A stretch of DNA of 64,000 nt from a virus. Lineage: Duplodnaviria > Heunggongvirae > Uroviricota > Caudoviricetes. Under the pieces are notes generated by a model. The model made no database searches. It worked only from the letters and a program-made list of their open reading frames with translations, and was not told the origin of the DNA. Location: IMG/VR virus record IMGVR_UViG_3300047560_001287, positions 1 through 64,000 of that record. One strand, 5' to 3'. Below are positions 1 to 43,163 of this stretch, one piece after another (the stretch's first letter is position 1; each line of letters opens with the position of its first letter). The translations under genes were made by a program, and so were the position numbers.

Positions 1-214
1 AGCGTTGGCTAGAGAAGTTATATTCTCAAGGCACACTAGAGTTGGATTACAAAAGTTGTGAAATGTTGAGCGATGATTTATACAATCAAATCGCACAACG
101 ATATCCCGATCGTGACATTGAGATTACTGTCTCCGAAGATGGTGAGAACGGCGCTACGATTTATTACAATAGAACTAAACCTTATCAACAACTCGCTATT
201 TAAAGGAAAATAAA

Positions 215-421
215 ATGGCAAAACCGCAAATCAAACCCAACGCAAAAGTCAATCAAATCTTTGACGATTTAGACAAATATTTAGATTTTTGCCAAGAGTA
301 TGGTTATAAGTATGACGAAGCAGATTTATACAATCAGCGGAGTTATGTGTATCGTCAATTTACTAAGTTTGCTACTAGCAGACCAGTAAAAAATCAATGG
401 GTGGAACACGCACGTCCATGA
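215..421 (+). CDS. hypothetical small protein (68 aa)
   Basis: ORF with AAGGAAA RBS 7 nt upstream; ends with ATGA overlap into next gene. Confidence 0.45.
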   Translation: MAKPQIKPNAKVNQIFDDLDKYLDFCQEYGYKYDEADLYNQRSYVYRQFTKFATSRPVKNQWVEHARP

Positions 422-1173
422 AAATAGTTTTAGTCACTGGTGGATTTGATCCACTACATAGCGGTCATATTGAATATTTCAAAGCCGCAAAACAGTTAGG
501 CGACAAGTTAGTTGTTGGCGTAAACAGTGACGCATGGTTGGCTCGTAAAAAGGGCCAACCTTTTATGCCTATTGCTGAACGTATGTCAATCATTGAGAAT
601 TTAAAAATGGTAGATCATTGTGTTATCTATAACGATGACGATGGTTCTAGCATCGAAGCTATTCGTAATGTAAAAATGATGTATCCAAATGATGAAATCA
701 TTTTTGCTAACGGTGGCGATAGAAATAAAAACAACATTCCAGAAATGGTATTTGATGATGTTAATTTTGTTTTCGGCGTCGGTGGTGAAAACAAAATGAA
801 TTCCAGTTCTTGGATATTGCAAGAATGGAAGCAACCTAAAATAATGCGACCATGGGGATATTATCGTATACTACACGAAGTATCAGGATGCAAAGTTAAA
901 GAACTAACAATTGAACCTGGTCAACGTCTTAGTATGCAAAAACATTTTAAGCGTAATGAATATTGGCTAGTTACACATGGTATGTGTCATGTCAATAGCA
1001 TGATGCCAAATGGTTATGTTTTGCCAGTAACGTTATTAAATGAACATCATAGTAAACATATTCCTAAAGGTGATTGGCATCAGTTAATTAACCCATATGA
1101 AATTCCTTGTCGTATTGTAGAAATACAATACGGTGAAGAATGTGTAGAAGAAGATATTGAGAGAAAAGAATGA
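418..1173 (+). CDS. nucleotidyltransferase (HldE domain II / RfaE-II-like, HxGH motif) fused to type-II phosphomannose-isomerase cupin domain
   Basis: N-term TGGFDPLHSGHIEYF...LGDKLVVGVNSDAWLARKKG matches ADP-heptose synthase domain II. C-term RPWGYY...GQRLSMQKHFKRNEYWLVTHG...EIQYGEECVEEDIER matches ManC-type PMI cupin. Start chosen at ATG 418 (ATGA overlap). Confidence 0.7.
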   Translation: MKIVLVTGGFDPLHSGHIEYFKAAKQLGDKLVVGVNSDAWLARKKGQPFMPIAERMSIIENLKMVDHCVIYNDDDGSSIEAIRNVKMMYPNDEIIFANGGDRNKNNIPEMVFDDVNFVFGVGGENKMNSSSWILQEWKQPKIMRPWGYYRILHEVSGCKVKELTIEPGQRLSMQKHFKRNEYWLVTHGMCHVNSMMPNGYVLPVTLLNEHHSKHIPKGDWHQLINPYEIPCRIVEIQYGEECVEEDIERKE

Positions 1174-2357
1174 GAACACTATATTACATGGGTCTAGAAC
1201 CCTACAAAGCAAGATACACTCTACAACTCACAGAGTGGAATGAGCGTGTCTTTAAGCGTAGAGGTATTGACTATGTAGTAGTACCCGGTGAAACATTATC
1301 TACAGACCAACAAATCGTAACAGGTCAAGTATTAGATGCACATGGTCGTAGTTATTTTGGCATGAGTCAATTAATGACATTGGTCAAGTGGATGAAAGAA
1401 GGAATTGTTACAAGTGAAGATGTTATCTACTTTGAAGATATGTTTCAACCAGGCTTTGAGAGTTTGCCTTATATTCTTAATCAGGTCCCTCAGTCGCATC
1501 GTCCAAAGATTTTTGTTAGATGCTTGGCTCAGTCAATCGACCCTGATGACTTTGTGCATGTATGGGGGATGTCCAAGTGGATGGGGCTATATGAACAGAT
1601 GGTGTGTGAGGCTGTCAGTCAAAGTGGGGGTGCTATCCTTGCGTCTAACGAAGAAATGGTCATGAACATGAAGATTGCAGGTTGGGAAGTTCCAATCTAC
1701 AATATCAGTGGTCTAGCATTTGGTAAACAAGAAGTAATTGAACGAGTTGGTACAATCAAACCATTCAATGAACGCAAACATCGTGTCGTGTTCTCAGCAC
1801 GATGGGATCAAGAAAAACAACCAGACTTCTATATGGATTTAATTGATGCTTGGCACAAACGTCATCCTGGAAGTGGTGTAGAGTTTGCAATTTGTTCAGG
1901 TGCAAAATTAAAAAGTAACAACGATAGTTATATGCAACGCACCCGAAATATGCAGGCTGCAGGAACCTTAACTTTACATGAGGATTTAAACAAAAATGAT
2001 TACTATAATATTGTCAATGATAGTCGTGTTGTTTTTAACTGTGCTTTACAAGATTGGGTTAGTAACACAGTTTCCGAAGCGGACGCTCTTGGTTGCAATG
2101 TGTTGTATCCTGCTTATAGGAGTTTCCCAGAAACTTTTGCAAATGATTATACCAGACTTTACGTACCATGGTCTATTGATGATGCTTTGGACAAACTTGA
2201 AAAGTTATTGAAGAAGCCCAGTGATAACATGGGTAAAATCAGTGACTGGACTGACTTGACTATTGACCGTATCTGTGATATCATTGAGGGGAAGGGTGAA
2301 CAATACCTTCGTATGTCAACCGATTATCGTAAACATTCTAGAGAAAGCAAATACTAA
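1170..2357 (+). CDS. putative GT-B fold glycosyltransferase
   Basis: 395 aa. C-terminal region VVFNCALQDWVSNTVSEADALGCNVLYP resembles the E-x7-E/GT4 nucleotide-sugar binding segment. ATGA overlap with upstream gene. Confidence 0.5.
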   Translation: MRTLYYMGLEPYKARYTLQLTEWNERVFKRRGIDYVVVPGETLSTDQQIVTGQVLDAHGRSYFGMSQLMTLVKWMKEGIVTSEDVIYFEDMFQPGFESLPYILNQVPQSHRPKIFVRCLAQSIDPDDFVHVWGMSKWMGLYEQMVCEAVSQSGGAILASNEEMVMNMKIAGWEVPIYNISGLAFGKQEVIERVGTIKPFNERKHRVVFSARWDQEKQPDFYMDLIDAWHKRHPGSGVEFAICSGAKLKSNNDSYMQRTRNMQAAGTLTLHEDLNKNDYYNIVNDSRVVFNCALQDWVSNTVSEADALGCNVLYPAYRSFPETFANDYTRLYVPWSIDDALDKLEKLLKKPSDNMGKISDWTDLTIDRICDIIEGKGEQYLRMSTDYRKHSRESKY

Positions 2358-2358
2358 T

Positions 2359-3276
2359 ATGTCAACAGAAGTAGTTAAAAACCCTGAGCATGAAAAACTC
2401 ATTGAGATTTTAAAGTTCACTCCGTGTACTTACAAGATTCAATTGTGGGGATATGGTGGTGAATATGTGATGGGTACAGTAGACCGCAAAATATACGACT
2501 ATTTCAAAAGACGCCGTCTTGACATAAGTGACTATGCCTGGGATAGTGACTATGCTAATGACAATCAAATTCCTGAAGATATGCAACCATTCTATCCAGG
2601 TCAATGGCATGACTGTGATGATATGGGTCATCACTGGGGTGTTGACAGAGGCGCAGGCACGTTGCAAATCTTAGACGAAAACGACAATGTAGTTTATGAA
2701 GCCAGTACTGATAACATTGATGGTTACAGTGAAGATAGCCCTGAATGGCGTGGTGGTGACGAGATATGGATTGACATGAAAGATCCAGGCACTGTTGTAT
2801 TCTTAGGAGTAAGCAGTGAGAAAGGTACGTTCTATGAAGGTCACTTAGAACTAAAATCTCCTTTCGATATCACTAAACTTTCACTCGAATATTCAGAGAT
2901 TGATTGTAACGAAATCATCACCGGTGTGTACTATAACGATGAACAAATTGACAACTACGGTGGTGACACTAGTGGCAAGAGTTCAGACTTTGGTTTCTAC
3001 ATTGCAGGCTCTAACAAGCACGATGGTAAGGGATACGAGAAGTATTCAAACATGGATGACATTGTTTATCCATTGACTGACTGGTTCCCTAAAAAAATCA
3101 AACCAGTCCGTGAAGGTATATATAATGTAAAGACTGCTGGTAAGAATAGTTATACATATCAAGCAAAGTGGACTGGTGATAAGTGGATCAAGACATGGAA
3201 TGATGAAGAAGTGAAAATTAAAGAGTGGCAGGGAATTAGTATCGATCCAGATTTAGAGGAGACAACAAATGGCTGA
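2359..3276 (+). CDS. hypothetical protein (305 aa), acidic, Trp/Tyr-rich
   Basis: Long ORF. Start set to first ATG after upstream stop. Confidence 0.5.
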   Translation: MSTEVVKNPEHEKLIEILKFTPCTYKIQLWGYGGEYVMGTVDRKIYDYFKRRRLDISDYAWDSDYANDNQIPEDMQPFYPGQWHDCDDMGHHWGVDRGAGTLQILDENDNVVYEASTDNIDGYSEDSPEWRGGDEIWIDMKDPGTVVFLGVSSEKGTFYEGHLELKSPFDITKLSLEYSEIDCNEIITGVYYNDEQIDNYGGDTSGKSSDFGFYIAGSNKHDGKGYEKYSNMDDIVYPLTDWFPKKIKPVREGIYNVKTAGKNSYTYQAKWTGDKWIKTWNDEEVKIKEWQGISIDPDLEETTNG

Positions 3277-3775
3277 GTGGAGCGTAAAACCCCAGTGGAA
3301 GAAATCAATTATTGAGCGCCAAGAATGGACTAAAGATGGACAATCATTCATCTATGAAACAGGTTGGCGCGGTGGTGAGTTTACTGTATACACAGATGAT
3401 GACAATCCCCCAGACATTGAAGCAGGTGTAGATATCTATAACTGTGACTATGAAACTGAACTTGTAGAAACATTTGATGGATGCTGGGACGATTATGATT
3501 TCGACGGTTGTGATGAAGAAACACAAGCGTGGCTAGAAGAATTCCTAGAAGAAAATTCTGTATTTGATTTGGAAGAACACGGTTGGTATAGCAATGATAC
3601 TGAAATGATTATTGATTGCGACTTAATCATTGAACGCATCGACGGTGACGAAGAACAAATTATTCACACTGGTCAACCAGAAGAAGAAGTCTTACCTGAA
3701 CTTGCACCTATTGTAGAAGAAAGAGCAAAATGGCCCTTCACTAGACCACAAGAAGGCACTAAGGAGGAAGAATAA
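3269..3775 (+). CDS. hypothetical highly acidic protein (168 aa)
   Basis: ORF overlapping upstream by 8 nt. About 30 percent Asp+Glu. Confidence 0.5.
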   Translation: MAEWSVKPQWKKSIIERQEWTKDGQSFIYETGWRGGEFTVYTDDDNPPDIEAGVDIYNCDYETELVETFDGCWDDYDFDGCDEETQAWLEEFLEENSVFDLEEHGWYSNDTEMIIDCDLIIERIDGDEEQIIHTGQPEEEVLPELAPIVEERAKWPFTRPQEGTKEEE

Positions 3776-4002
3776 TGGCACGAAAGAAAAAAGAAGTATT
3801 GGCTAACGAACCATCAGGTGGTTGGCCCGTAATTAGTCAAGGTCAACACCTGACCGTAAAGACTTTTGAAGATGGTTCAACTGAACTTGTTTGGGACGAT
3901 GAAGCATTATTGGAAGCAGTAAGAGAAGCAATTGCCTCTGTAGAAACAGAAGAAGCGAAAGCAAAACCAAAACCAAAGCGTAAATCAAAGGAGAAAAAAT
4001 GA
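3775..4002 (+). CDS. hypothetical small protein with Lys-rich tail
   Basis: TAATG overlap start. C-term KAKPKPKRKSKEKK. Confidence 0.4.
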   Translation: MARKKKEVLANEPSGGWPVISQGQHLTVKTFEDGSTELVWDDEALLEAVREAIASVETEEAKAKPKPKRKSKEKK

Positions 4003-4190
4003 GCGCACATAACGATATCAACACACACTTGGAAGCATATTTAGCAGAGAGTGAAAAATTTGAAAAGGGCAACAATGCCGCAGGTACACGTGCCCGCAAA
4101 GCATTAGCAGAACTAGCGAAAGCAGTTAAGGCTCGCCGTAATGAAATTACTGCTGAAAAAACTGCACGTAAAGAAGCGAAGGCAAAATAA
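3999..4190 (+). CDS. histone H1-like / KA-rich small basic DNA-binding-type protein
   Basis: 63 aa. AAGTRARKALAELAKAVKARR...KTARKEAKAK low-complexity basic helix. Confidence 0.4.
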   Translation: MSAHNDINTHLEAYLAESEKFEKGNNAAGTRARKALAELAKAVKARRNEITAEKTARKEAKAK

Positions 4191-4191
4191 A

Positions 4192-4383
4192 ATGTCAAAA
4201 CTAAACAAACTCGCAAAAGTAAATGAATCTATCAGTGTCAATCGGTATGATAACGGTTTTATGGTAGAAATCGGAGGTCGTGATTCAGATTCAGATTGGA
4301 AGAATTGTAAAATTCTTTGCAACACGGAAGAAGAAATGATCGCCGTAATCAAAGAGTGGAATTCTAAAGAACTCGACAACTGA
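4192..4383 (+). CDS. hypothetical small protein (63 aa)
   Basis: Internal ATG immediately after upstream stop. Confidence 0.4.
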   Translation: MSKLNKLAKVNESISVNRYDNGFMVEIGGRDSDSDWKNCKILCNTEEEMIAVIKEWNSKELDN

Positions 4384-4450
4384 GTATAAATACATGTGCT
4401 ACACAACGGTAGCACATTTCAATTTTCATATCCGCGTAAGGAAGGATTCT

Positions 4451-5131
4451 ATGAGTTATAACAAAACAAAAACCGACCCTGAGTTGGGTCAACAAGTGCA
4501 TGAGCACTTAGTCAAAATGGGTGTAGAAACACCAATCAACAAACGCAACATCGACCGCAAGGATCAAATTGCAGGCATCGAAGGTCACTTCACTGAAATC
4601 ATGCGTATCTTAGGATTAGACTTAACTGATGATAGTTTAACTGAAACACCTAAGCGTGTTGCTAAAATGTATGTTAATGAAATTTTCTGGGGTCTAGATT
4701 ATGAAGCATTTCCAAAGTGTACTACAGTTGATAACAAAATGCACTACAACGAAATGGTCGTTGAACGAAACGTTTCAGTCCAAAGTAACTGCGAACATCA
4801 CTTTGTCGTTATTGATGGCTTGGCTACAGTTGCTTATGTTCCTAAGCAGAAAGTCCTTGGCTTATCGAAGATTAATCGAATTGTCGAGTATTTTAGTAAA
4901 CGACCTCAGATCCAAGAACGTCTTACCGAGCAAATCTTCCACACACTTCAGTTCATTCTTGAAACTGAAGATGTTGCAGTCCTCATTGACGCACAACACT
5001 ATTGTGTTAAATCAAGAGGTGTTGAAGATACGGGATCCAGCACAGTTACATGCCGATTGGGTGGCGGTTTCAAAACAGATCCATCTGCACGTGGTGAGTT
5101 CTTACAAATTGCTAACAAAGGATGCAAATGA
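4451..5131 (+). CDS. folE: GTP cyclohydrolase I
   Basis: AAGGAAGGA RBS. CEHHFV catalytic motif, VAKMY, C-terminal STVTCRLGGGFK. Full-length FolE-type alignment by eye. Confidence 0.9.
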   Translation: MSYNKTKTDPELGQQVHEHLVKMGVETPINKRNIDRKDQIAGIEGHFTEIMRILGLDLTDDSLTETPKRVAKMYVNEIFWGLDYEAFPKCTTVDNKMHYNEMVVERNVSVQSNCEHHFVVIDGLATVAYVPKQKVLGLSKINRIVEYFSKRPQIQERLTEQIFHTLQFILETEDVAVLIDAQHYCVKSRGVEDTGSSTVTCRLGGGFKTDPSARGEFLQIANKGCK

Positions 5132-5322
5132 TTGAATTTCTTTCAAACATGAGTTTATTACTTGGAATGATTATTGAACAAGCAGTTTACATATTTTTAT
5201 TTTGTGTGGCGGGCTTGTTCATGTTTTATACTATAAAGAACACACCAGATAGTGCTTGTACAGGTAACTGCAATCAAGGTCGTAACTGTAACTGCAAGGA
5301 GAAGAAAGATGGGATTTCGTAA
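5122..5322 (+). CDS. small membrane protein with Cys-rich tail
   Basis: One predicted TM helix then CTGNCNQGRNCNC. Confidence 0.3.
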   Translation: MQMIEFLSNMSLLLGMIIEQAVYIFLFCVAGLFMFYTIKNTPDSACTGNCNQGRNCNCKEKKDGIS

Positions 5323-5545
5323 ACCAATGGACTACAATCAAGTGCATCATCAAATCTATATGGCAGGTGTAGAAATGAGTAGCAAATACAATGACGGTTT
5401 CACTCAATGGGAAATCAAAAAAGATTTGTATAAACTCAAATGGATGTTGGATCAGATTATGAAAGATAGTCCTACATTCGCTGATGAAGAACAATTCTTA
5501 AAAGAGAATGAACAGCGTGTAATGTGGAAGACTTTAAAGTTATGA
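5309..5545 (+). CDS. hypothetical protein (78 aa)
   Basis: AGGAGA RBS before ATG 5309. Confidence 0.4.
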   Translation: MGFRKPMDYNQVHHQIYMAGVEMSSKYNDGFTQWEIKKDLYKLKWMLDQIMKDSPTFADEEQFLKENEQRVMWKTLKL

Positions 5546-5847
5546 CTAAAACAAGCGTTGAACTAATACAAGAGGCTGCTGAAAGAATCATAAATGATCC
5601 AGTAGAACTTAAAAAGTTCATGCGACATATTCTAGGTCCTAATCGTAGGAAAATCACAGGTCAAGAACATGACCACATGTTAACTGTATTTGCTTTAGTA
5701 GAACCAATTGAATCAAGTAACAATCAAAGATCATGGACAGATGTATATGAACATGCAGGTAAAACTTATCATGTTCATTACTTTGAAGATGAAACAGAAA
5801 TAGAAGAAATACTACCAGATGATATTCAACAAGATAAAACAACTTAA
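5542..5847 (+). CDS. hypothetical protein (101 aa)
   Basis: ATGA overlap start. Confidence 0.45.
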   Translation: MTKTSVELIQEAAERIINDPVELKKFMRHILGPNRRKITGQEHDHMLTVFALVEPIESSNNQRSWTDVYEHAGKTYHVHYFEDETEIEEILPDDIQQDKTT

Positions 5848-6280
5848 AGAAGCAGGCAAAAAGATTGGCATTACATTCTCAACTTTTGACTTACTTCACG
5901 CAGGGCACATTGCTATGTTGGCTGAGGCTAAAAATCATTGTGACTACCTTATTGCAGGACTCCAAACTGACCCCACTATCGACAGACCAGATACGAAGAA
6001 TAAACCTGTACAGTCAATTGTGGAGCGACAAATACAATTGGCATCGTGTCGTTTTGTTGATGAAGTTGTTGTATACTCAACCGAACAAGACCTCATCGAC
6101 CTTCTCCTCATCCTTCCAGTTGACGTTAGAATACTCGGTGTCGAATATCAAAGTCAGGACTTTACTGGTAGAAAAGAAGGGACCGAAAAAGGTATAGAAC
6201 ACGTGTTTAACTCTCGTGACCATAGTTTCTCAAGTTCTAGTTTGAGAAAAAGAGTAGCTGAATCTGAAAATGGTAAATAA
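5819..6280 (+). CDS. cytidylyltransferase, TagD-like (glycerol-3-phosphate cytidylyltransferase family)
   Basis: GITFSTFDLLHAGHIAMLAEAK...YLIAGLQTD...RFVDEVVV aligns motif-for-motif with TagD ITYGTFDLLHWGHIKLLERAK...RYVDEVI. Confidence 0.75.
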   Translation: MIFNKIKQLKEAGKKIGITFSTFDLLHAGHIAMLAEAKNHCDYLIAGLQTDPTIDRPDTKNKPVQSIVERQIQLASCRFVDEVVVYSTEQDLIDLLLILPVDVRILGVEYQSQDFTGRKEGTEKGIEHVFNSRDHSFSSSSLRKRVAESENGK

Positions 6281-6354
6281 CATAAACCGGTCTTATGGGC
6301 TCACCCCGGTATATAAATTCTGCGTCCTATGCTAAAATTAACATAGGAGAAAAT

Positions 6355-6858
6355 ATGCATAATCCAATTACATACAAATACACAAGCACAAAAGAATACC
6401 ACGATGCGTTTCCGTGTGCTTATCGTCAATGGCGTGCAGACAGCCATTGCAACACAATTCATGGTTACAGTTTCAGTATGAAATTCTATTTCGGTACAAA
6501 CGATTTAGATGCCCGTAACTGGGCTGCCGACTATGGTGGTCTAAAAGAATTGAAGAAGTTCTTGGAAGATCAATTCGACCACACACTTATCGTAGCACAA
6601 GATGATCCAGAAATGGAAACATTCAAACTATTACAAGAAAAGAAGATGGCTAAAATCATCGTCTTGCCTGCGTTAGGTTGTGAAGCACTAAGTGATATGC
6701 TATACAAGTATGTCAATGGTGTTTACATTCCTGAGATGTGGGGTGAGGGAGAAGCAAAAAGACTTTGGTGCTACCGTGTAGAAGTACGGGAGACTCAAAG
6801 CAATATGGCTTTCAGAGAAGGTCATAGAGAGTGGAATGAAGATTTATTTAAGGAGTAA
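6355..6858 (+). CDS. queD: QueD-like 6-carboxytetrahydropterin synthase (PTPS/T-fold family), atypical metal ligands
   Basis: AGGAGA RBS. SHCNTIHGYSF matches Cx3HGH motif but second His is Tyr. FDHTLIVAQDD matches the LDHHYLND region. Confidence 0.7.
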   Translation: MHNPITYKYTSTKEYHDAFPCAYRQWRADSHCNTIHGYSFSMKFYFGTNDLDARNWAADYGGLKELKKFLEDQFDHTLIVAQDDPEMETFKLLQEKKMAKIIVLPALGCEALSDMLYKYVNGVYIPEMWGEGEAKRLWCYRVEVRETQSNMAFREGHREWNEDLFKE

Positions 6859-6860
6859 AA

Positions 6861-7481
6861 ATGTTTTCATTATTTAAAGACGTAGATAAGAAAATGATGG
6901 CAATGCTTGCAGTATTGCACGTTATTGTTATTATAATTTCAAACGCATTGGTTTCAATCCCAGTTGAAATCTTAGGTGTTAAATTAACTTGGGCGGCATT
7001 TACCTTCCCATTAGTTATTTTGGCAACAGACTTGACAGTCCGTTTACTAGGTAAAGGTATTGCACGGGCAACTATTGCGGCAGCATATCCATTTGCTATC
7101 TTAGGTAGTATTGCAGTTGTATTGTTAGAGGGAGCACCTCAATCAGTAGCATTGCGTATTGGTTTTGCTAGTGCAACAGCATACTTAGTAGGTACACTAC
7201 TTGATGTATATGTATTCCAATATGTCCGTGAGAAGTTCACTAAGCAATGGTGGGCGGCTCCTGCATTATCAATGATTGCCGCAAACTTTATTGATAGTTA
7301 CACATTCTTCAGTGTTGCATTCTATCAAAGTGCAGACGAATACATGGCGGCTAACTGGAGTGAAATTGCATTGAGTCAAACTATCCTAAAGATTGCAGTA
7401 GGTATTATTGTGTTCTTACCAGCATATGGTGTTCTATTGAACTTCTTAAAGAAGCGTATACACGATACTGACCAAGGATAA
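6861..7481 (+). CDS. yhhQ: YhhQ/DUF165-family queuosine-precursor (preQ0/preQ1) transporter
   Basis: AGGAG RBS. About 6 TM helices. N-terminal LAVLHVIVIIISNALVSIPVEILG typical of the family. Confidence 0.75.
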   Translation: MFSLFKDVDKKMMAMLAVLHVIVIIISNALVSIPVEILGVKLTWAAFTFPLVILATDLTVRLLGKGIARATIAAAYPFAILGSIAVVLLEGAPQSVALRIGFASATAYLVGTLLDVYVFQYVREKFTKQWWAAPALSMIAANFIDSYTFFSVAFYQSADEYMAANWSEIALSQTILKIAVGIIVFLPAYGVLLNFLKKRIHDTDQG

Positions 7482-7639
7482 TGAAGAACATTTGGCGTTT
7501 ATGGGCGAAAGCCCTTGGCGAAAAATCAGGTGATACGGATCAGGAAGCTGACCGTATCGCTTTGATTAGAACCTGCATTGTGCTAACATATATAGTCACA
7601 AATATTTTTATTGTTGCAGGCGTTATAAGGCATTGGTAA
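7481..7639 (+). CDS. small hydrophobic protein (52 aa)
   Basis: Fills otherwise empty gap. TAATG start and TAAATG end couplings. Not in supplied ORF track (<60 aa). Confidence 0.3.
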   Translation: MKNIWRLWAKALGEKSGDTDQEADRIALIRTCIVLTYIVTNIFIVAGVIRHW

Positions 7640-8194
7640 ATGAATATAGTAATTACAGGGCATATGGGTGGTATTGGTTTAGAATTTGCCACTCAGTTAA
7701 GAAATGCAGGTCATGTGATACATGGTTATGATTTGCTAAATGGCTATAATGTAGTTGACAGTCACACGCAAGATTTAATACTTGAACAGTTAAAATCGTG
7801 CGATGTGTTTATTAATAATGTTTATGGTGAATCACAACTTGAATTATTAAAGAAGGCAACAGCATCTTGGTTGGGTTTTAAAAAGTTAATAGTAAACATG
7901 AATAGTAAAAAGGTGTTAAAGGATCCTTCATTGATTGTTCCGGGCACACAAGAATCAAAATATTATACGGAAAAAATGAATCAAATGGTTTTCGCTAGAC
8001 AACATGCTAACACCAAAAAGACACCATTGATAATGTCAGTTTTTCCAGGATGGATTGATACAAAAGCCGCAGATACGTCTGGCGAAAATCCAACTGATAG
8101 AATGAAAGTAAGTACACTGGTAAAAACAATAGTACCATATATTGAAGATTTTTCCGAGTTCTATTTACAAGAAATGGTTATTGATTTATCATAA
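7640..8194 (+). CDS. short-chain dehydrogenase/reductase-like (compact, 184 aa)
   Basis: N-terminal ITGHMGGIG Rossmann motif. YYTEK fits YxxxK. Confidence 0.55.
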   Translation: MNIVITGHMGGIGLEFATQLRNAGHVIHGYDLLNGYNVVDSHTQDLILEQLKSCDVFINNVYGESQLELLKKATASWLGFKKLIVNMNSKKVLKDPSLIVPGTQESKYYTEKMNQMVFARQHANTKKTPLIMSVFPGWIDTKAADTSGENPTDRMKVSTLVKTIVPYIEDFSEFYLQEMVIDLS

Positions 8195-8213
8195 AGAATT
8201 ATGAAAGAAAGAA

Positions 8214-9056
8214 ATGGCAGAGTTAAAAATAGCTGAATTATTTTATAGCATTCAAGGTGAAGGACGTTATATGGGCGTTCCTTCTGTGTTTTTGAGAACA
8301 TTTGGGTGCAACTTCAAATGTGAAGGCTTCGGTATGCCTAGAGGTCAAACTAGTAATGAAAGGTTTACAATTGATGCAGATAGTATTACAGAGTATAAAA
8401 ATTTACCGTTGGTGTCTACGGGCTGTGATTCATATGCTTCATGGGACCCTCGTTTCAAGCATCTTAGTCCTATGCTCAATGTTAATACTATTGCCGATAG
8501 CATTATTGATTTACTTCCTCATGGTCGTTGGATGGATGAACACTTGGTTATTACTGGGGGTGAGCCACTTCTTGGATGGCAAAGAAGCTATCCTGAATTA
8601 CTTTCGAACGAAAAAATGAGGGCTCTCAAAGAGTTAACATTTGAGACTAACGGAACACAACATTTGAGTGAAGAATTTAAAGAATTCTTGCAACTTTGGA
8701 AAAGAAATAGAGAAAAGAATGCACTAACTTTTAGTGTAAGTCCTAAATTATCAGTAAGTGGAGAAAAGTATAATGAAGCAATTTTGCCTAATGTTATACG
8801 TCAATACCAAGATGTGGGTTTTGTATACCTTAAGTTCGTGGTGGCTTCAGAAGAAGATGTATTGGAAGCTGAAAAAGCTACACAAGAATACAAAAACTGC
8901 GGATTCAAAGGTCCAGTCTACTTGATGCCCGTTGGTGGTGTTGAAAGTGTTTACGAAATGAACGCAAAGAATGTAGCATTGGCAGCAATGAAACGTGGCT
9001 GGCGTTATAGTGATAGATTGCAAGTGCCATTATTTAAAAATGAATGGGGAACATGA
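8214..9056 (+). CDS. queE: 7-carboxy-7-deazaguanine synthase (radical SAM)
   Basis: ELFYSIQGEGRYMGVPSVFLRTFGCNFKCEGF matches QueE N-terminus and Cx14CxC-type cluster motif. Confidence 0.85.
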   Translation: MAELKIAELFYSIQGEGRYMGVPSVFLRTFGCNFKCEGFGMPRGQTSNERFTIDADSITEYKNLPLVSTGCDSYASWDPRFKHLSPMLNVNTIADSIIDLLPHGRWMDEHLVITGGEPLLGWQRSYPELLSNEKMRALKELTFETNGTQHLSEEFKEFLQLWKRNREKNALTFSVSPKLSVSGEKYNEAILPNVIRQYQDVGFVYLKFVVASEEDVLEAEKATQEYKNCGFKGPVYLMPVGGVESVYEMNAKNVALAAMKRGWRYSDRLQVPLFKNEWGT

Positions 9057-9262
9057 TGGCAGAGACACACAAACGAACAGTAGTTAGAATGATTACCTAT
9101 CGCTTATCAGCGTGGTTACTCACAATACCAATAATGTATTGGCTTACTGGTAACTTAGAAGAATCAATCGGGAGTTCAGTTCTGATTCACATACTTCTAA
9201 GTATAGATTACTATATACACGAACGCATATGGCTCAAAGTTAAATGGGGTAAAATTGAATGA
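9053..9262 (+). CDS. small membrane protein
   Basis: ATGA overlap with queE. Two hydrophobic segments. Confidence 0.35.
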   Translation: MMAETHKRTVVRMITYRLSAWLLTIPIMYWLTGNLEESIGSSVLIHILLSIDYYIHERIWLKVKWGKIE

Positions 9263-9498
9263 TCGATGTTCCAGAATATCAAGAAATCGACCTTAATGAG
9301 TACGAACGCAAAACTCGTGCTTGGGAACTGAAGTTCTGTTGGTTACCACAACGTTGTATTGAAACAATGCAGGTTATGTGGCTACAGTTTGCTTATCGTG
9401 GTTATAAGGCTCGTAGATATGATACGCAAATTATCGATTCGTATAAATGGATGTGCAAAGAAGAATTTATTATTTTGAGATTAAAAGGTGAGGTATGA
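9259..9498 (+). CDS. hypothetical protein (79 aa)
   Basis: ATGA overlap couplings on both sides. Confidence 0.35.
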   Translation: MIDVPEYQEIDLNEYERKTRAWELKFCWLPQRCIETMQVMWLQFAYRGYKARRYDTQIIDSYKWMCKEEFIILRLKGEV

Positions 9499-10850
9499 AA
9501 ACATATAAGAAAAGAATTGCGTTTTTAATTAGTGACCAACATTTTATCCCGCATGGTGGCATTGGTAGTTTCTGTAAGAGTTTTACAGAAATGTGTGGTC
9601 GGATTGGTTGGAAAGTAGATATTCTTTTAGACAAGGCTCCTACAGGTGGGTTTGATAAAGTGATTGAGGCTGCTGGTGCCAACATTATTTGGCCACTAGA
9701 ACCACTACGTTATAGTGACCACACTGCTACATTTGCGTTTAGTGATACAATCAACTTTGAAAAGATTATTAATTTCCGTAACAGCATCTTAGAAGCATTT
9801 GAAGAAAATCTCTATGACATGATTTTGTGCAACACGCAGGAAGCAATGAGTGCGGCTTATGCGATGACTTTGAATAAAGATATCCCTGTGATTTTCTATA
9901 CTCATTTACACAGTATGATTTTCCGTTCAGGTCAAGGTAGTGATGTGTTCTTAGATAGTTATCACAACTTCTACAACAAACATATGGAATTTCCTGATAT
10001 CTTTATCGGCACTCAATCACTGAAAAACAAAATAGAATTAGAAAGTCATGGTTCAAAATATGTAAGTATTTTACAGATGCCATTGAGTGAGCGTGGGTTA
10101 CTAGAGCCTAGTTATAAGAAACGCAGGGGTGTATTGTTTATTGGTCGATGGGAAGAAGGTAAGAACCCAGAAGCATATATCAAAGCGATGAAAGAATCAG
10201 GATTACCCTGCAAAGTTATGACTAACAGTAACGGACAAAAGAAGTTCGAGAAGGCTTTTGCAGAGAATGGTATCACTGACTACGAAATCAAAGCAGGGAT
10301 TACTGGACAAGAGAAAGTAGACTTTATTAAAAGTTGTGCAGTATTTTTTATGCCTAGCTTGCGTGAAAACTTTCCGTTCGCATTCTATGAATGTTTAGGA
10401 CACATGCCTAGCGTAGTGTTAGACACACAAGATTGGTCTGAGAATTTCCTACACATCTACTATTATAGAACTAACATGGATGAAGTTTCTGACACGTTAA
10501 AAAGATTACACGACACATCTAATCCAGAAAAATATTACAAAACAGGAGCGTTAGAATATGTCAAGTCTATTGACACTGATACTGTTCAGTCTTGGATTGA
10601 TTTTATTGACGGGTATGAAGGTAGAAAAGCAAAATCTAATCAAGCTAAAATCAATGAATACGAAACAGTGAAATACGCTGACTATATCAAAGAGTTAAAT
10701 CGTAAACATTTAGCGAGAGAAGATTTTGAAAGTGTGTTAACCAATAGACATAAATTCAACGTCATTTATACGGACAATCACACTTATCTATCAAAAGATG
10801 CTACCTTTGTACCAGACGAAGAAGAAACTAACTTATTTGAGGGACTATGA
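9495..10850 (+). CDS. GT-B glycosyltransferase (GT4-like)
   Basis: GGTGAGG RBS. RGVLFIGRWEEGKN...SLRENFPFAFYECLGHMPSVVLD resembles GT1/GT4 donor-binding segment. Confidence 0.65.
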   Translation: MKTYKKRIAFLISDQHFIPHGGIGSFCKSFTEMCGRIGWKVDILLDKAPTGGFDKVIEAAGANIIWPLEPLRYSDHTATFAFSDTINFEKIINFRNSILEAFEENLYDMILCNTQEAMSAAYAMTLNKDIPVIFYTHLHSMIFRSGQGSDVFLDSYHNFYNKHMEFPDIFIGTQSLKNKIELESHGSKYVSILQMPLSERGLLEPSYKKRRGVLFIGRWEEGKNPEAYIKAMKESGLPCKVMTNSNGQKKFEKAFAENGITDYEIKAGITGQEKVDFIKSCAVFFMPSLRENFPFAFYECLGHMPSVVLDTQDWSENFLHIYYYRTNMDEVSDTLKRLHDTSNPEKYYKTGALEYVKSIDTDTVQSWIDFIDGYEGRKAKSNQAKINEYETVKYADYIKELNRKHLAREDFESVLTNRHKFNVIYTDNHTYLSKDATFVPDEEETNLFEGL

Positions 10851-11671
10851 AAAAGATTTTAATTACAGGCAACTCGGGATATATCGGTAGTCATCTGACT
10901 AAGATGTTACAAGATGAATATGAAGTTCATGGGCTTGACATTAATCCACCGCAACTACTCCCCAAGACGCATCACACGATTGACATTCGTAAATTGTTTA
11001 ATATTGAAGAAGAATATGATGCCGTTATTCACTTAGCCGCATTAGTTAATGTGGGTGAGAGCGAACAAATACCCATTCAGTATTACATCACAAACTTGAA
11101 TGGTACAATGAATGTGATTAACAAAATCAAGACAAAGAACTTTATCTTTGCTAGTACAGGTGCCGCAGTTGGATGTGAGAGTGCATACGGTATTAGCAAA
11201 AGAGCCGCAGAAGATGTAGTTGGAGAATATTGTACAACCCATCGCCCGACACCATATACAATCTTTAGATTTTATAATGTTATTGGAAGCACCGTCGTGG
11301 CTCCCACTAACCCCGATGGATTAATGTACAATTTAATGAAGGCCCGAGAAACAGGAGAATTCACTATTTTCGGTAAGGACTATGATGCAAGTCCTGATGG
11401 AACTTGTATTCGTGACTATGTACATGTCAATGAGATTTGTGATGCATTAAAGCAAGCAATAGAGAAACCAAGTAATAGTGTTGAATCATTGGGACATGGT
11501 GTTGGATATACTGTTCGTGAAATTGTCAATAAATTTATGGAAGTAAACGATTGTGACTTTGATGTAAAGTATGGACCTAGAAGAAAAGGTGATCTTGCTG
11601 TTTCTGTATTAGAAGATGTTTCACCTTATATGCGTAACTTGTATACGATGGAAGAGTTGTTAAAAGTTTAA
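10847..11671 (+). CDS. NAD-dependent nucleotide-sugar epimerase/dehydratase
   Basis: ILITGNSGYIGSHL Rossmann motif. YGISK catalytic YxxxK. Extended-SDR length. Confidence 0.8.
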   Translation: MKKILITGNSGYIGSHLTKMLQDEYEVHGLDINPPQLLPKTHHTIDIRKLFNIEEEYDAVIHLAALVNVGESEQIPIQYYITNLNGTMNVINKIKTKNFIFASTGAAVGCESAYGISKRAAEDVVGEYCTTHRPTPYTIFRFYNVIGSTVVAPTNPDGLMYNLMKARETGEFTIFGKDYDASPDGTCIRDYVHVNEICDALKQAIEKPSNSVESLGHGVGYTVREIVNKFMEVNDCDFDVKYGPRRKGDLAVSVLEDVSPYMRNLYTMEELLKV

Positions 11672-12360: not shown

Positions 12361-12367
12361 CTAGTAT

Positions 12368-13663: not shown

Positions 13664-13693
13664 AAAATTATTTATTGCGGATAAATTACTATT

Positions 13694-22269: not shown

Positions 22270-22651
22270 AAAATCAGTCAAACAGACTATTACCGAGGCA
22301 GTATTAGCACAGCTAGTGCCTACAAACGAGCCTATTGAAAGAATAATAAACGAGTGGTGGTTCACTAAGTCAAGCGAAGGGCTTAGGTTAAGTCCATTGG
22401 GCGACTTGTGTTTTCGTCAAGCAGAGATAGAATACTTTGATTTACCAATCACAGTAACTCAATCAAACTGGCACAAGTTTATTATGGACTGTAGTAAGAA
22501 AATAAAATGTCCATATTATATAGGTGTGAACAAAGACGAACTAAAAAAGAGTAAAGCATACATTAGACTTTACGATAGTAAAATTGCAATGCTAATGCAA
22601 ATTTACGGAGACATTCACAGTTACTTAGAATCAGTAAAATCTAGGAATTAA
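22262..22651 (+). CDS. hypothetical protein (129 aa)
   Basis: ATGA overlap internal start. Confidence 0.4.
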   Translation: MSKKSVKQTITEAVLAQLVPTNEPIERIINEWWFTKSSEGLRLSPLGDLCFRQAEIEYFDLPITVTQSNWHKFIMDCSKKIKCPYYIGVNKDELKKSKAYIRLYDSKIAMLMQIYGDIHSYLESVKSRN

Positions 22652-40655: not shown

Positions 40656-40762
40656 CCTAAATATTAGATTTTTTTGCGTATTTTTTATAAAATAAATACG
40701 TATTCAGATGCCGATGGTCGGGTCTGAAACATGTCATACTTGCTTATTAAAGGAGAAAACAA

Positions 40763-41200: not shown

Positions 41201-41210
41201 TATAATAGCT

Positions 41211-43144: not shown

Positions 43145-43163
43145 AATCGCATAAATACACATT

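What the first reader, a model, noticed from the sequence alone, without database searches (positions are those of the whole stretch)
5819..6280. TagD-like (CDP-glycerol synthase family) cytidylyltransferase inside the deazaguanine operon of a phage that appears to infect a Gram-negative host
The motif match to glycerol-3-phosphate cytidylyltransferase is strong (FDLLHxGH, RYVDEV, Ser-rich C-terminal motif). CDP-glycerol is a teichoic-acid-type precursor. Its presence here, between folE and queD and with a possible degenerate GDPD-like gene at 22648-23130 (-), hints at glycerophosphate chemistry, such as glycerol-phosphate decoration of a glycan or nucleobase. The host appears Gram-negative, judged from the lipoboxes and the ClpS/ErpA repertoire.
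Basis: partly seen in the sequence, partly recalled or inferred. Interest (0 to 1): 0.6.

Follow-up and report, generated by a model that had tools for sequence, protein, structure and literature searches.

The report
Phage TagD/HldC-like nucleotidyltransferase, backbone gene
The gene is a real small enzyme that joins a nucleotide to a phosphorylated alcohol or sugar. It is a conserved backbone gene of an abundant group of large uncultured phages, more likely makes an activated sugar than CDP-glycerol, and is not a dedicated part of the neighbouring deazaguanine genes.

Summary
ORF 5819-6280 (+), 153 aa, is a genuine HxGH nucleotidylyltransferase: Pfam CTP_transf_like 1.6e-10, PHROG 7878 4e-31, AF2 pLDDT 92. 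It sits between FolE and QueD as described.

The assignment to TagD (CDP-glycerol synthase) is not established. The protein falls far below the curated cut-offs of both TagD (54.6 vs 165 bits) and HldC/RfaE-II (83 vs 181 bits). Profiles favour HldC, solved structures slightly favour TagD, and in a tree the family forms its own clade.

Context favours a sugar phosphate as substrate. Relatives at 44-56% identity lie three times in SIS isomerase + GHMP kinase + epimerase clusters. Others are fused to SIS, HAD, cupin, UDP-sugar dehydrogenase or GT2 domains. One lies near a T4-type DNA glucosyltransferase homologue. The window itself holds a second copy fused to a mannose-6-P-isomerase cupin, two GT-B glycosyltransferases and a GalE-like epimerase. 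No CDP-glycerol-using enzyme was found, and the proposed "GDPD-like" gene has no profile support.

The link to deazaguanine is positional. Ten of 22 fully flanked related loci lack FolE/QueD/QueE, and three syntenic loci keep this gene but lack the whole island.

Verdict: new member of a known kind, of modest interest. An unexcluded long shot is a sugar-decorated deazaguanine product.

The parts
5819..6280 (+). The 153-aa HxGH nucleotidylyltransferase (TagD/HldC-like, PHROG 7878). This is the finding.
   Evidence: ORF. Pfam PF01467 1.6e-10. NCBIfam rfaE_dom_II 83.1 bits, TagD 54.6 bits. PHROG 7878 4.3e-31. AF2 pLDDT 92.3. Foldseek best matches TarD/TagD/HldC/CCT.
5885..5908 (+). FDLLHAGH motif (residues 23-30). 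H27 and H30 correspond to the catalytic HxGH histidines.
   Evidence: Read from the sequence. H27 is invariant, and G29 and H30 are conserved in at least 90% of 53 family members. Aligned to TagD H14/H17.
5984..6028 (+). Conserved basic loop R56-x3-K60-N-K-P63 ... E69-R70. It aligns with the Lys-rich phosphate-binding loop and R55 of TagD and with the KG(D)xRP loop of HldC.
   Evidence: Invariant columns R56, K60, P63 and R70. Alignments. The exact residue equivalence is uncertain by one position.
6050..6067 (+). RFVDEV motif (residues 78-83), the counterpart of RYVDEV in TagD/CCT/ECT.
6215..6247 (+). C-terminal R133-D-H135-S-F-S138-S-S-S-L-R143 motif, the counterpart of RTEGISTT (TagD/CCT) and xSTT (HldC).
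   Evidence: R133, H135, S138 and R143 are conserved in at least 90% of members. Alignments.
397..1173 (+). Paralogue. The N-terminal HxGH nucleotidyltransferase domain (about 34% identical to the 153-aa protein) is fused to a mannose-6-phosphate-isomerase-type cupin. It is a likely sugar-phosphate isomerase/nucleotidyltransferase (inferred).
   Evidence: Pfam MannoseP_isomer 1.8e-25 plus CTP_transf_like 1e-14. rfaE_dom_II 82 bits. The N-domain groups with HldC and 3glv in the tree.
1170..2357 (+). GT-B (GT4-like) glycosyltransferase 'GTa'. Candidate user of an NDP-sugar (inferred). Acceptor unknown.
   Evidence: Weak Pfam Glycos_transf_1 and Glyco_trans_1_2 hits. AF2 pLDDT 74. Foldseek best matches MshA, GlgM, WaaG, PimA and BshA.
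9495..10850 (+). Second GT-B glycosyltransferase 'GTb'. Candidate user of an NDP-sugar (inferred).
   Evidence: Pfam Glycos_transf_1 2.6e-6. Co-travels with the epimerase in window-type loci.
10847..11671 (+). GalE-like NDP-sugar 4-epimerase (SDR).
   Evidence: Pfam Epimerase 7.9e-32. TIGR01179 galE 1.3e-46, below cut-off. PHROG 540 nucleotide-sugar epimerase 1.5e-40.
4394..5131 (+). FolE (GTP cyclohydrolase I). A neighbour in the accessory island, not shown to need the nucleotidyltransferase.
   Evidence: NF006824 326.9 bits, above its cut-off of 202.
6295..6858 (+). QueD-like 6-carboxytetrahydropterin/PTPS synthase. A neighbour in the accessory island.
   Evidence: Pfam PTPS 2.4e-16. PHROG 2389 6.9e-37.
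6861..7481 (+). YhhQ-type queuosine-precursor transporter. A neighbour, rare among related loci (3 of 80).
   Evidence: TIGR00697 113.8 bits, above its cut-off of 50.95. tblastn counts.
8214..9056 (+). QueE-like radical SAM enzyme. A neighbour in the accessory island.
   Evidence: PHROG 2076 1.7e-52. Partial QueE NCBIfam hits below cut-off.

Best explanation
ORF 5819-6280 encodes a stand-alone class-I-type (HxGH) nucleotidylyltransferase. It belongs to a virus-rich subfamily that sits between HldC (heptose-1-phosphate adenylyltransferase) and TagD/ECT.

Shown:
- The fold is predicted with high confidence.
- The catalytic motif set for NTP alpha-phosphate attack and pyrophosphate release is intact.
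- The gene is a slowly evolving backbone gene (about 80-93% identity) of a very abundant group of large uncultured aquatic phages. It occupies at least five different neighbourhoods in these phages.

Inferred:
- The enzyme condenses an NTP with a phosphorylated sugar to give an NDP-sugar. The most plausible substrate is a heptose- or hexose-1-phosphate, supplied by the host or by the neighbouring nucleotidyltransferase-cupin enzyme.
- Phage glycosyltransferases then use that NDP-sugar. In this window the candidates are 1170-2357 and 9495-10850, with the epimerase 10847-11671.
- The acceptor is unknown. It could be phage DNA, a small molecule or the host envelope.
- The FolE/QueD/QueE genes around it belong to an accessory island inserted on both sides of this backbone gene. 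They do not depend on it.
For: Enzyme class:
- Pfam, NCBIfam and PHROG hits.
- AF2 pLDDT 92.3 and Foldseek best matches TarD/TagD/HldC/CCT/Fom1.
- Invariant H27, R56, K60, P63, R70 and E89.

Sugar-phosphate substrate:
- HldC is the best curated profile for the protein and for 43 of 53 family members.
- P0122 (56% identical) lies in Epimerase-MT-MT-GHMP kinase-SIS-CT.
- P0218 (about 45%) lies in GT2-GT2-MT-MT-x-CT-GHMP kinase-SIS-Epimerase-x-UDPG dehydrogenase-GT2 on a phage contig.
- P0257 is a SIS-CT fusion beside an Epimerase+GHMP-kinase fusion and glycosyltransferases.
- Other fusions: CT+HAD, CT+cupin, UDPG dehydrogenase+CT, GT2+CT.
- P0130 (48%) lies in kinase-CT-methyltransferase-..-AGT (T4 DNA alpha-glucosyltransferase family) on a 314-kb phage contig.
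- The window has a CT-cupin paralogue, two GT-B enzymes and an epimerase.
- Precedent: phages encode their own sugar-1-P nucleotidyltransferases for DNA glycosylation (PMC13326640, PMC12838424).

Independence from deazaguanine:
- Arrangement types across 80 IMG/VR loci.
- Ten of 22 loci with at least 8 kb on both sides have no FolE/QueD/QueE.
- L025, L028 and L069 share the window's backbone order (polB-c15-c21-c12-CT-UvdE-c1-Exo53). They lack GTa, FolE, QueD, QueE, GTb and the epimerase.
- Cultured phages with copies at 57-69% identity show no such neighbours.
Against: - No SIS isomerase, sugar kinase or HAD phosphatase was found near the gene in this window. The sugar-phosphate source is therefore assumed.
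- Profile-versus-PDB scores, the Foldseek ranking and the distance bootstrap lean slightly to TagD rather than HldC.
- The protein is below the curated cut-off of every equivalog model.
- In two independent arrangements the gene lies within 1-5 kb of QueE. A functional tie to that pathway is weakened, not excluded.
- Many related loci show the gene with no glycosyltransferase within 10 kb.
- The 80 loci were selected by similarity to this protein, which inflates its apparent relative conservation.
- No biochemical data exist for any member of this subfamily.
Confidence: 0.5

Rival explanations
1. First reader's reading. The protein is a true TagD-type CTP:glycerol-3-phosphate cytidylyltransferase. 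It makes CDP-glycerol for glycerophosphate decoration of a glycan, a virion component or a nucleobase.
For: TagD/TarD are the top solved-structure matches by profile (75.5 and 72.1 bits, against 61.6 for HldC) and by Foldseek (E about 1e-8, 30% identity). TagD was the nearest reference group in 128 of 200 bootstrap resamplings. The RFVDEV motif and an R-containing C-terminal motif resemble TagD/CCT more than E. coli HldE. JGI and UniProt automatic names say TagD. Viromics papers report the gene as tagD (PMC11515562, PMC7678222).
Against: TIGR01518 scores 54.6 bits against a cut-off of 165.4, below the HldC model. Only 15 of 53 family members reach 1e-15 on TagD, against 43 on HldC. The family is its own clade, not nested in TagD/TarD. 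No CDP-glycerol-consuming enzyme (TagB/TagF type) is among about 60 ORFs scanned, and the 'GDPD-like' ORF has no support. Relatives sit with sugar isomerases, kinases, epimerases and glycosyltransferases, not glycerophosphotransferases. Hosts of cultured carriers are mostly Gram-negative.
Confidence: 0.13
2. The enzyme is a component of the deazaguanine/pterin pathway. For example, it could adenylate the carboxylate of 7-carboxy-7-deazaguanine as PanC-type relatives do, substituting for the missing QueC. Or it could nucleotidylate a pathway intermediate.
For: The gene lies between FolE and QueD here. In a second, differently ordered arrangement it lies one gene downstream of QueE. QueE is within 10 kb in 46 of 80 loci. 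No QueC was detected in the window. There is a weak N-terminal hit to pantoate-beta-alanine ligase (E 6e-4), and PanC structures appear among the Foldseek matches.
Against: Ten of 22 fully flanked loci lack FolE/QueD/QueE. Three syntenic loci retain the gene without the island. More distant relatives and cultured phages carry it without any deazaguanine genes nearby. The PanC hit covers only the HxGH region. The published inventories of phage deazaguanine genes, as far as I searched them, name no such enzyme, and a full-text search found no relevant paper (PMC10516641). Phages lacking QueC have another described route: DpdL decarboxylase to dDG (PMC10516641).
Confidence: 0.08
3. The enzyme is a cofactor adenylyltransferase acting on a ubiquitous host metabolite. 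Candidates are a RibL-like FMN adenylyltransferase, NMNAT or PPAT, serving to boost or restore FAD, NAD or CoA during infection.
For: The gene occurs alone, without sugar genes within 10 kb, in many related phages. This fits a substrate every host supplies. There is a full-length match to the archaeal 3glv-type protein (54.6 bits), whose relatives include the archaeal FAD synthetase RibL (this relation is from my own knowledge, not tested). The S-S-S-x-L-R C-terminal motif resembles the ISSTxIR motif of adenylyltransferases (sequence reading, not tested).
Against: NMNAT, PPAT and FAD-synthetase models score only 16-30 bits and cover only the N-terminal motif. These enzymes are absent from the top 50 structural matches. 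No Nampt or Nudix partner was seen in the window. Fusion and context data of relatives point to sugars.
Confidence: 0.1

Closest known systems
HldC / RfaE domain II, D-glycero-beta-D-manno-heptose-1-phosphate adenylyltransferase (TIGR02199; PDB 5X9Q; E. coli HldE C-terminal domain)
   Same: Same fold and size (about 150 aa). It has the FD(I/L)LHAGH motif, a K-x-x-(R/K)-P loop followed by E-x-R, a G-x-(D/E)-Y motif before the C-terminal part, and an S-(S/T)-(S/T) motif. It is the best curated profile (83 bits) and the best for 43 of 53 family members. Relatives sit with a SIS isomerase, a kinase and an SDR epimerase, as in heptose-nucleotide pathways.
   Different: The score is far below the cut-off of 181.5 bits. 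Identity to solved HldC is about 25%. The family forms a separate clade. The kinase partner in relatives is GHMP-type, not the PfkB-type of HldE. No isomerase, kinase or phosphatase lies next to the gene in this window. Nucleotide and sugar specificity are untested.
TagD/TarD, CTP:glycerol-3-phosphate cytidylyltransferase (TIGR01518; PDB 1COZ, 1N1D, 2B7L)
   Same: Closest solved structures by profile and Foldseek (30% identity, TM about 0.8). It shares HxGH, R(Y/F)VDEV and an R-containing C-terminal motif.
   Different: 54.6 bits against a cut-off of 165.4. GDDW is replaced by G-x-E-Y, and the conserved DPT-x-DR-P insertion is absent from TagD. No teichoic-acid-type partner genes are present. 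Carriers are mostly phages of Gram-negative hosts.
PHROG 7878 and the 'tagD' auxiliary metabolic genes reported in aquatic viromes
   Same: The protein is a member of this phage protein family (4.3e-31). Genes carrying the same automatic 'tagD' name are reported as AMGs in Arctic and Lake Baikal viromes (PMC11515562, PMC7678222). I did not compare those sequences with this family. BFVD holds a 60%-identical 'TagD' from an uncultured Caudovirales phage and a 49%-identical Yasminevirus protein.
   Different: The published functional labels (teichoic acid, cryoprotection, heptose kinase/adenylyltransferase) come from automatic annotation and have not been tested. The present analysis adds the backbone-gene behaviour and the sugar-pathway contexts.
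Phage-encoded sugar-1-phosphate nucleotidyltransferases that feed DNA glycosylation (UDP-arabinose and UDP-xylose pyrophosphorylases of RB69-like phages and Shewanella phage Thanatos)
   Same: The same proposed logic applies: the phage makes its own NDP-sugar for phage glycosyltransferases (PMC13326640, PMC12838424). One relative lies near an AGT-family DNA glucosyltransferase homologue.
   Different: Those enzymes resemble MurU- and LicC-type sugar nucleotidyltransferases (PMC13326640). From my own knowledge that is a different fold from this HxGH Rossmann-like protein. No DNA glycosylation is demonstrated for this phage group.

Membership tests
Cytidylyltransferase-like superfamily (Pfam PF01467; HxGH nucleotidylyltransferases) | Profile match above the curated gathering score | tested here: met
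   41.8 bits against 21. TIGR00125 cyt_tran_rel 48.6 bits against 27.7.
Cytidylyltransferase-like superfamily (Pfam PF01467; HxGH nucleotidylyltransferases) | HxGH motif and C-terminal (R)xxxxS-S/T-S/T motif | tested here: met
   H27-A-G-H30 and R133...S138-S-S-S141.
Cytidylyltransferase-like superfamily (Pfam PF01467; HxGH nucleotidylyltransferases) | Rossmann-like alpha/beta fold with a five-stranded parallel sheet | tested here: met
   The AF2 model has pLDDT 92.3 and strands at 16-21, 43-49, 82-86, 103-107 and 127-131. Foldseek probability is 1.0 to TarD, TagD, HldC and CCT.
TagD/TarD glycerol-3-phosphate cytidylyltransferase (TIGR01518, EC 2.7.7.39) | Score at or above the equivalog cut-off (165.4 bits) | tested here: not met
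   54.6 bits. Only 15 of 53 family members reach E<=1e-15.
TagD/TarD glycerol-3-phosphate cytidylyltransferase (TIGR01518, EC 2.7.7.39) | Phylogenetic placement inside the TagD/TarD clade | tested here: inconclusive
   The NJ tree on 139 columns, with only six reference sequences (two TagD/TarD, two HldC, one ECT, one 3glv), shows the family as its own clade. TagD is the nearest group in 128 of 200 resamplings and HldC in 47.
TagD/TarD glycerol-3-phosphate cytidylyltransferase (TIGR01518, EC 2.7.7.39) | Genomic association with CDP-glycerol-consuming enzymes (TagB/TagF-type glycerophosphotransferases) | tested here: not met
   None among about 60 window ORFs scanned against Pfam, including all ORFs of 300 aa or more. 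None in the contexts of relatives.
TagD/TarD glycerol-3-phosphate cytidylyltransferase (TIGR01518, EC 2.7.7.39) | CTP and sn-glycerol-3-phosphate specificity | not testable with these tools
   Needs an enzyme assay.
HldC / RfaE domain II heptose-1-phosphate adenylyltransferase (TIGR02199) | Score at or above the equivalog-domain cut-off (181.5 bits) | tested here: not met
   83.1 bits, although this is the best-scoring curated family. 43 of 53 members reach E<=1e-15.
HldC / RfaE domain II heptose-1-phosphate adenylyltransferase (TIGR02199) | Association with a sedoheptulose-7-P isomerase (SIS), a heptose kinase, a phosphatase and an epimerase | tested here: inconclusive
   Not present next to the gene in this window. 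Present around relatives P0122, P0218 and P0257, and in SIS and HAD fusions.
HldC / RfaE domain II heptose-1-phosphate adenylyltransferase (TIGR02199) | ATP and heptose-1-phosphate specificity | not testable with these tools
   Needs an enzyme assay.
Phage 7-deazaguanine DNA-modification gene set (FolE, QueD, QueE, QueC and variants, DpdA) | Consistent co-occurrence of the gene with the pathway genes | tested here: not met
   Ten of 22 loci with at least 8 kb on both sides have none of FolE/QueD/QueE. Syntenic loci L025, L028 and L069 keep the gene without the island.
Phage 7-deazaguanine DNA-modification gene set (FolE, QueD, QueE, QueC and variants, DpdA) | Listed as a component in the published pathway inventories | tested here: not met
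   It is not named among the enzymes in the passages of PMC10516641 that I searched. The full-text search for 7-deazaguanine + phage + cytidylyltransferase found nothing relevant.
PHROG 7878 (phage 'heptose 1-phosphate adenylyltransferase' family) | Full-length profile match | tested here: met
   4.3e-31, residues 15-148 on profile positions 2-130 of 131.

The most novel reading that the evidence does not exclude
The accessory island around this gene may make a sugar-decorated 7-deazaguanine (or pterin-derived) product, possibly in phage DNA. NDP-sugars made by the two HxGH nucleotidyltransferases would be the donors.

The island consists of FolE, QueD and QueE without QueC, a nucleotidyltransferase-cupin fusion, two GT-B glycosyltransferases and an epimerase. 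In syntenic relatives, just upstream of the window, there is also a 517-aa protein with a GDSGGFQ motif.

Two differently organised islands (window type and the 'QueE-c1-CT' type) both combine FolE/QueD/QueE with sugar-nucleotide genes: glycosyltransferase-like proteins, an epimerase and a UDP-sugar dehydrogenase. No glycosylated 7-deazaguanine has been described in the phage DNA modification papers I read.
Probability: 0.1. Interest if true: 0.8.

Novelty: new member of a known kind. Interest (0 to 1): 0.3.

Why it matters
Genes automatically named tagD have been read in virome papers as teichoic-acid or cryoprotection genes. If those genes belong to the same family as this one, which I did not check, that reading is poorly founded: members of this family in phages of Gram-negative hosts more likely activate sugars. 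A nucleotide-sugar supply encoded by the phage would bear on how very abundant uncultured aquatic phages glycosylate DNA or surfaces to escape host defences. It also separates a backbone gene from the mobile deazaguanine island, which sharpens the search for that island's real components. By itself the gene is an ordinary enzyme of a well-known superfamily.

Tried and rejected
1. 'GDPD-like' ORF 22648-23130(-): no Pfam hit at E<=0.01 and only PHROG 34507 of unknown function. Rejected as support for glycerophosphate chemistry.

2. Search for QueC, DpdA/TGT and TagF-type enzymes among about 60 window ORFs: none found.

3. The 517-aa protein c29, just upstream of the window in syntenic loci, has a GDSGGFQ motif reminiscent of TGT/DpdA. 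It has no Pfam, PHROG or PDB sequence hit. There is only a weak tblastn hit (3e-4) to a 'TGT domain-containing protein' of a Vibrio phage, and 35% identity to PA5oct-like hypothetical proteins. It remains a lead only.

4. Attempt to resolve TagD versus HldC by profiles, PDB profile search, Foldseek and an NJ tree: the methods disagree and the question stays unresolved.

5. Test of whether GTa resembles T4 DNA glucosyltransferases: it has only generic GT-B/GT4 neighbours and no PDB sequence hits for either glycosyltransferase.

6. Promoter and terminator scan of 1-12500: no more sites than in shuffled sequence, so uninformative.

7. Megablast of the region against cultured phages: only a 241-nt FolE match, so there is no close cultured relative.

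8. Look-up of the exact protein's contig failed.

9. The glycosyltransferases of Acinetobacter phage Ab1-TPeters are not detectably homologous to those of the window.
Full report
**Observation**

The window contains an ATG-initiated ORF at 5819-6280 on the + strand that encodes 153 aa. It carries three motifs:
- FDLLHAGH at residues 23-30.
- RFVDEV at residues 78-83.
- R-D-H-S-F-S-S-S-S-L-R at residues 133-143.

It matches Pfam CTP_transf_like above the gathering score (41.8 vs 21 bits) and PHROG 7878 over its full length (4.3e-31). Homologues are very numerous. More than 8000 were scored in the word-indexed metagenome search, and the best 120 are at 84% identity or more. In the library of representatives at 50% identity, 9127 clusters match at E<=1e-3. 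Downstream come YhhQ (6861-7481), an SDR-like ORF and a QueE-like radical SAM enzyme (8214-9056). All genes from 42 to 11671 are co-directional and tightly packed. A promoter and terminator scan gave no more sites than shuffled sequence.

**Genomic setting**

The window comes from a large uncultured phage. It encodes ClpX, ClpP, an ATP-dependent DNA ligase, Fe/Mn superoxide dismutase, UvdE, a fatty-acid desaturase and a D-Ala-D-Ala carboxypeptidase. No cultured phage is close at the DNA level. In syntenic metagenomic loci the adjacent family-B DNA polymerase is 45-48% identical to those of jumbo phages of Gram-negative hosts: Atu_ph07, Phosso, RaK2, GAP32 and Vibrio 2.275.O. Copies of the gene at about 80% identity occur in the species-representative genome collection only on MAG contigs binned as Haliscomenobacter and Polynucleobacter. 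These are most likely mis-binned phage contigs. A Gram-negative aquatic host is therefore plausible.

**Which family?**

The protein belongs to the TagD/CCT/ECT/HldC branch of the superfamily. It does not belong to the NMNAT/PPAT/FAD-synthetase branches. Models of those branches score 16-30 bits on the N-terminal motif only, and their structures are absent from the top 50 Foldseek matches.

Within the branch the assignment is unresolved:
- Curated NCBIfam models favour HldC/RfaE domain II over TagD (83.1 vs 54.6 bits). Both are far below their cut-offs of 181.5 and 165.4 bits.
- Across 53 diverse family members, 43 reach E<=1e-15 on HldC and 15 on TagD.
- A family profile searched against PDB sequences scores TagD 75.5, TarD 72.1, Burkholderia HldC 61.6, the ECT N-domain 61.2 and 3glv 54.6 bits.
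- The AF2 model (pLDDT 92.3) matches TarD/TagD best by E-value (30% identity, TM about 0.8). It matches HldC best by query coverage (TMq 0.72).
- In a neighbour-joining tree on 139 columns the family is a clade of its own. It is separate from HldC (which groups with 3glv and the cupin-fused paralogue) and from TagD/TarD plus ECT. The nearest reference group was TagD in 128, HldC in 47, ECT in 19 and 3glv in 6 of 200 resamplings.

The family has features of both sides. It has G-x-E-Y like HldC's GGDY, and an R-containing C-terminal motif like TagD/CCT. It also has its own conserved DPT-x-DR-P-x-x-KNKP loop.

**Evidence on the substrate from relatives**

Domain fusions among relatives at 43-53% identity are:
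- SIS+CT.
- CT+HAD (Hydrolase_3).
- CT+cupin.
- UDP-glucose/GDP-mannose dehydrogenase+CT.
- GT2+CT.

Gene neighbourhoods of relatives:
- P0122 (56%) lies in Epimerase-methyltransferase-methyltransferase-GHMP kinase-SIS-CT.
- P0218 (about 45%) lies in GT2-GT2-MT-MT-x-CT-GHMP kinase-SIS-Epimerase-x-UDPG dehydrogenase-GT2. The contig also carries a Tad2-like gene, so it is a phage.
- The SIS-CT fusion P0257 sits beside an Epimerase+GHMP-kinase fusion and large glycosyltransferases.
- P0130 (48%), on a 314-kb phage contig, is preceded by an overlapping APH/choline-kinase-fold kinase. It is followed by a methyltransferase and, two genes on, a homologue of the T4 DNA alpha-glucosyltransferase family.

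The combination of isomerase, kinase, nucleotidyltransferase and epimerase is the logic of heptose-nucleotide synthesis (established knowledge of the GmhA/HldE/GmhB/HldD and HddA/HddC pathways). It recurs three times independently. None of these contexts contains a CDP-glycerol glycerophosphotransferase or deazaguanine genes.

In the window itself there is a paralogue (397-1173). Its HxGH domain is fused to a mannose-6-phosphate-isomerase-type cupin. Two glycosyltransferases are also present, at 1170-2357 and 9495-10850, and the first has a predicted GT-B fold. A GalE-like epimerase lies at 10847-11671. No SIS isomerase, sugar kinase or HAD phosphatase was found near the gene here.

**Is it part of the deazaguanine operon?**

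Eighty IMG/VR loci carrying a copy at 78-93% identity were fetched. Their ORFs were clustered. The gene occupies at least five arrangements:
- (A) The window type: polB-c15-c21-c29-...-c12-[CT-cupin]-GTa-...-FolE-c16-c26-CT-QueD-...-QueE-c19-GTb-Epimerase-...-UvdE-c1-Exo.
- (B) FolE-HIT-QueD-GT-like-[B12 radical SAM]-[UDPG dehydrogenase, epimerase]-QueE-c1-CT-c3-Exo.
- (C) ...Hsp20-ClpS-CT-exoribonuclease..., with no deazaguanine genes within 10 kb.
- (D) A jumbo-phage context, including a 360-kb contig, also with none.
- (E) L025, L028 and L069: polB-c15-c21-c12-CT-UvdE-c1-Exo.

Type E is the window's backbone order without c29, GTa, FolE, QueD, QueE, GTb and the epimerase. Among 22 loci with at least 8 kb on both sides, 12 contain at least one of FolE/QueD/QueE and 10 contain none. 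Cultured phages with copies at 57-69% identity (Acinetobacter phage Ab1-TPeters, Vibrio phage pv27) show no such neighbours.

The simplest reading is that the nucleotidyltransferase is a backbone gene. The deazaguanine and glycosyltransferase genes are then an accessory island inserted around it (type A) or beside it (type B). The repeated proximity to QueE in two arrangements keeps a functional link from being excluded.

The gene is also unusually conserved. Its identity exceeded the median of the other shared proteins in 74 of 74 loci (about 80% vs about 45-60%). The loci were chosen by similarity to this protein, so this contrast is inflated by selection.

The proposed degenerate GDPD-like gene (22648-23130, - strand) has no Pfam match and only a PHROG of unknown function. 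No TagB/TagF-type enzyme was found among about 60 ORFs scanned, which include every ORF of 300 aa or more. No QueC or recognisable DpdA lies in the window.

In syntenic type-A loci, a 517-aa protein with a GDSGGFQ motif lies just upstream of the window start. It has no profile or PDB hit, and only a 3e-4 tblastn hit to a 'TGT domain-containing protein'. It is a lead for the transglycosylase, not a result. Published work shows that phages lacking QueC can make dDG through DpdL and DpdA3, and that DpdA3 was found only by remote-homology tools (PMC10516641).

**Mechanism proposed**

Shown: an intact HxGH nucleotidylyltransferase with a confidently predicted fold.

Inferred: it catalyses NTP + sugar-phosphate -> NDP-sugar + PPi. 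The product is used by phage glycosyltransferases, optionally after epimerisation. The phosphosugar would come from the host (Gram-negative hosts make heptose-1-phosphate and hexose-1-phosphates) or from the cupin-fused paralogue. The acceptor is unknown. Phage-encoded sugar-1-phosphate nucleotidyltransferases that feed DNA glycosylation are an established precedent, but their structural matches are to MurU- and LicC-type enzymes rather than HxGH enzymes (PMC13326640, PMC12838424).

My confidence estimates are:
- about 0.9 for the enzyme class;
- about 0.5 for a sugar-phosphate substrate;
- about 0.13 for true TagD activity;
- about 0.1 for a cofactor adenylyltransferase;
- about 0.08 for a role in the deazaguanine pathway.

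**Comparison with the literature and novelty**

Genes automatically named tagD have been reported as auxiliary metabolic genes in Arctic and Lake Baikal viromes. They were read there as teichoic-acid genes (PMC11515562, PMC7678222). I did not compare those sequences with this family. Pharokka-annotated phage genomes label members of this family 'bifunctional heptose 7-phosphate kinase/heptose 1-phosphate adenylyltransferase'. BFVD contains a 60%-identical 'TagD' from an uncultured Caudovirales phage and a 49%-identical protein from the giant virus Yasminevirus.

None of these labels has been tested. This gene is therefore a new member of a known, uncharacterised viral subfamily of a well-known enzyme superfamily. 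The more interesting open possibility concerns the island. FolE/QueD/QueE travel with sugar-nucleotide genes in two differently organised islands, so the island may make a sugar-decorated deazaguanine or pterin product. That is speculative, and I rate it at about 0.1.

Noticed in passing
window 397-1173 (+): A second HxGH nucleotidyltransferase is fused to a mannose-6-phosphate-isomerase-type cupin. This architecture replaces the usual GT-A-fold guanylyltransferase of PMI-GMP enzymes. It is present in only 8 of the related loci, always next to glycosyltransferase GTa.
   Followed up: partly
L040:2266-3819 and equivalents in L005, L007, L008, L033 etc., just upstream of window position 1 in syntenic loci: A 517-aa protein (cluster c29) carries a GDSGGFQ motif like tRNA-guanine transglycosylases/DpdA. 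It has no Pfam, PHROG or PDB hit. It is 35% identical to hypothetical proteins of PA5oct-like Pseudomonas jumbo phages. It is absent from the syntenic loci that lack FolE/QueD/QueE, so it is a candidate divergent DpdA.
   Followed up: partly
L031, L034, L054, L063, L070 and other 'type B' loci: A second, differently ordered island combines FolE, a HIT-family protein, QueD, a glycosyltransferase-like protein, a B12-binding radical SAM enzyme, a methyltransferase, a UDP-sugar dehydrogenase, an epimerase and QueE. As in the window, deazaguanine/pterin genes travel with sugar-nucleotide genes and without QueC.
   Followed up: partly
window 5819-6280 compared with loci L003-L084: The nucleotidyltransferase is 78-93% identical across phages whose other shared proteins are about 45-60% identical (ClpS 58%, Hsp20 52%, c30 44%). 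This points either to very strong constraint or to recent exchange between phages. The comparison is biased because the loci were selected by this protein.
   Followed up: partly
window 3999-4190 (+): A 63-aa ORF matches the chlamydial histone H1-like protein Hc1 (Pfam PF07432, 4.6e-14). It is a small basic DNA-binding protein inside the accessory region.
   Followed up: no
window 4394-4417: A perfect 9-bp-stem palindrome (ATGTGCTAC-ACAACG-GTAGCACAT) overlaps the first ATG of the FolE ORF. The conserved FolE domain starts about 60 residues later, so the true start is probably downstream and the hairpin may be a regulatory or terminator element.
   Followed up: no
window 6861-7481 (+): A phage-encoded YhhQ-type preQ0/preQ1 transporter passes the TIGR00697 cut-off. 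It is rare among relatives (3 of 80 loci). It suggests salvage of deazaguanine precursors in addition to synthesis.
   Followed up: no
window 12368-13663 (-), 13694-14248 (-), 33643-34368 (+), 53179-53916 (-): Other auxiliary genes are present: a 431-aa radical SAM protein with a possible SPASM-like segment, a Fe/Mn superoxide dismutase, a fatty-acid desaturase and a D-Ala-D-Ala carboxypeptidase. ClpX, ClpP, ClpS and Hsp20 lie at 39235-45352.
   Followed up: no
L099 (Acinetobacter phage Ab1-TPeters, PP763253.1) 13327-15593: This cultured phage has the closest cultured copy of the gene (69% identity). It also has two adjacent glycosyltransferases next to topoisomerase II, plus thymidylate and dNMP kinases and a dCTP deaminase. 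It is a tractable system for testing whether the enzyme feeds DNA glycosylation.
   Followed up: partly
P0257 context and BFVD hit A0A5K0UAQ6: Members of the same subfamily occur in giant viruses or eukaryote-associated contigs: Yasminevirus at 49% identity, and a SIS-CT fusion next to an ion-channel gene and a PQ-loop gene. The family therefore spans phages and nucleocytoplasmic large DNA viruses.
   Followed up: no
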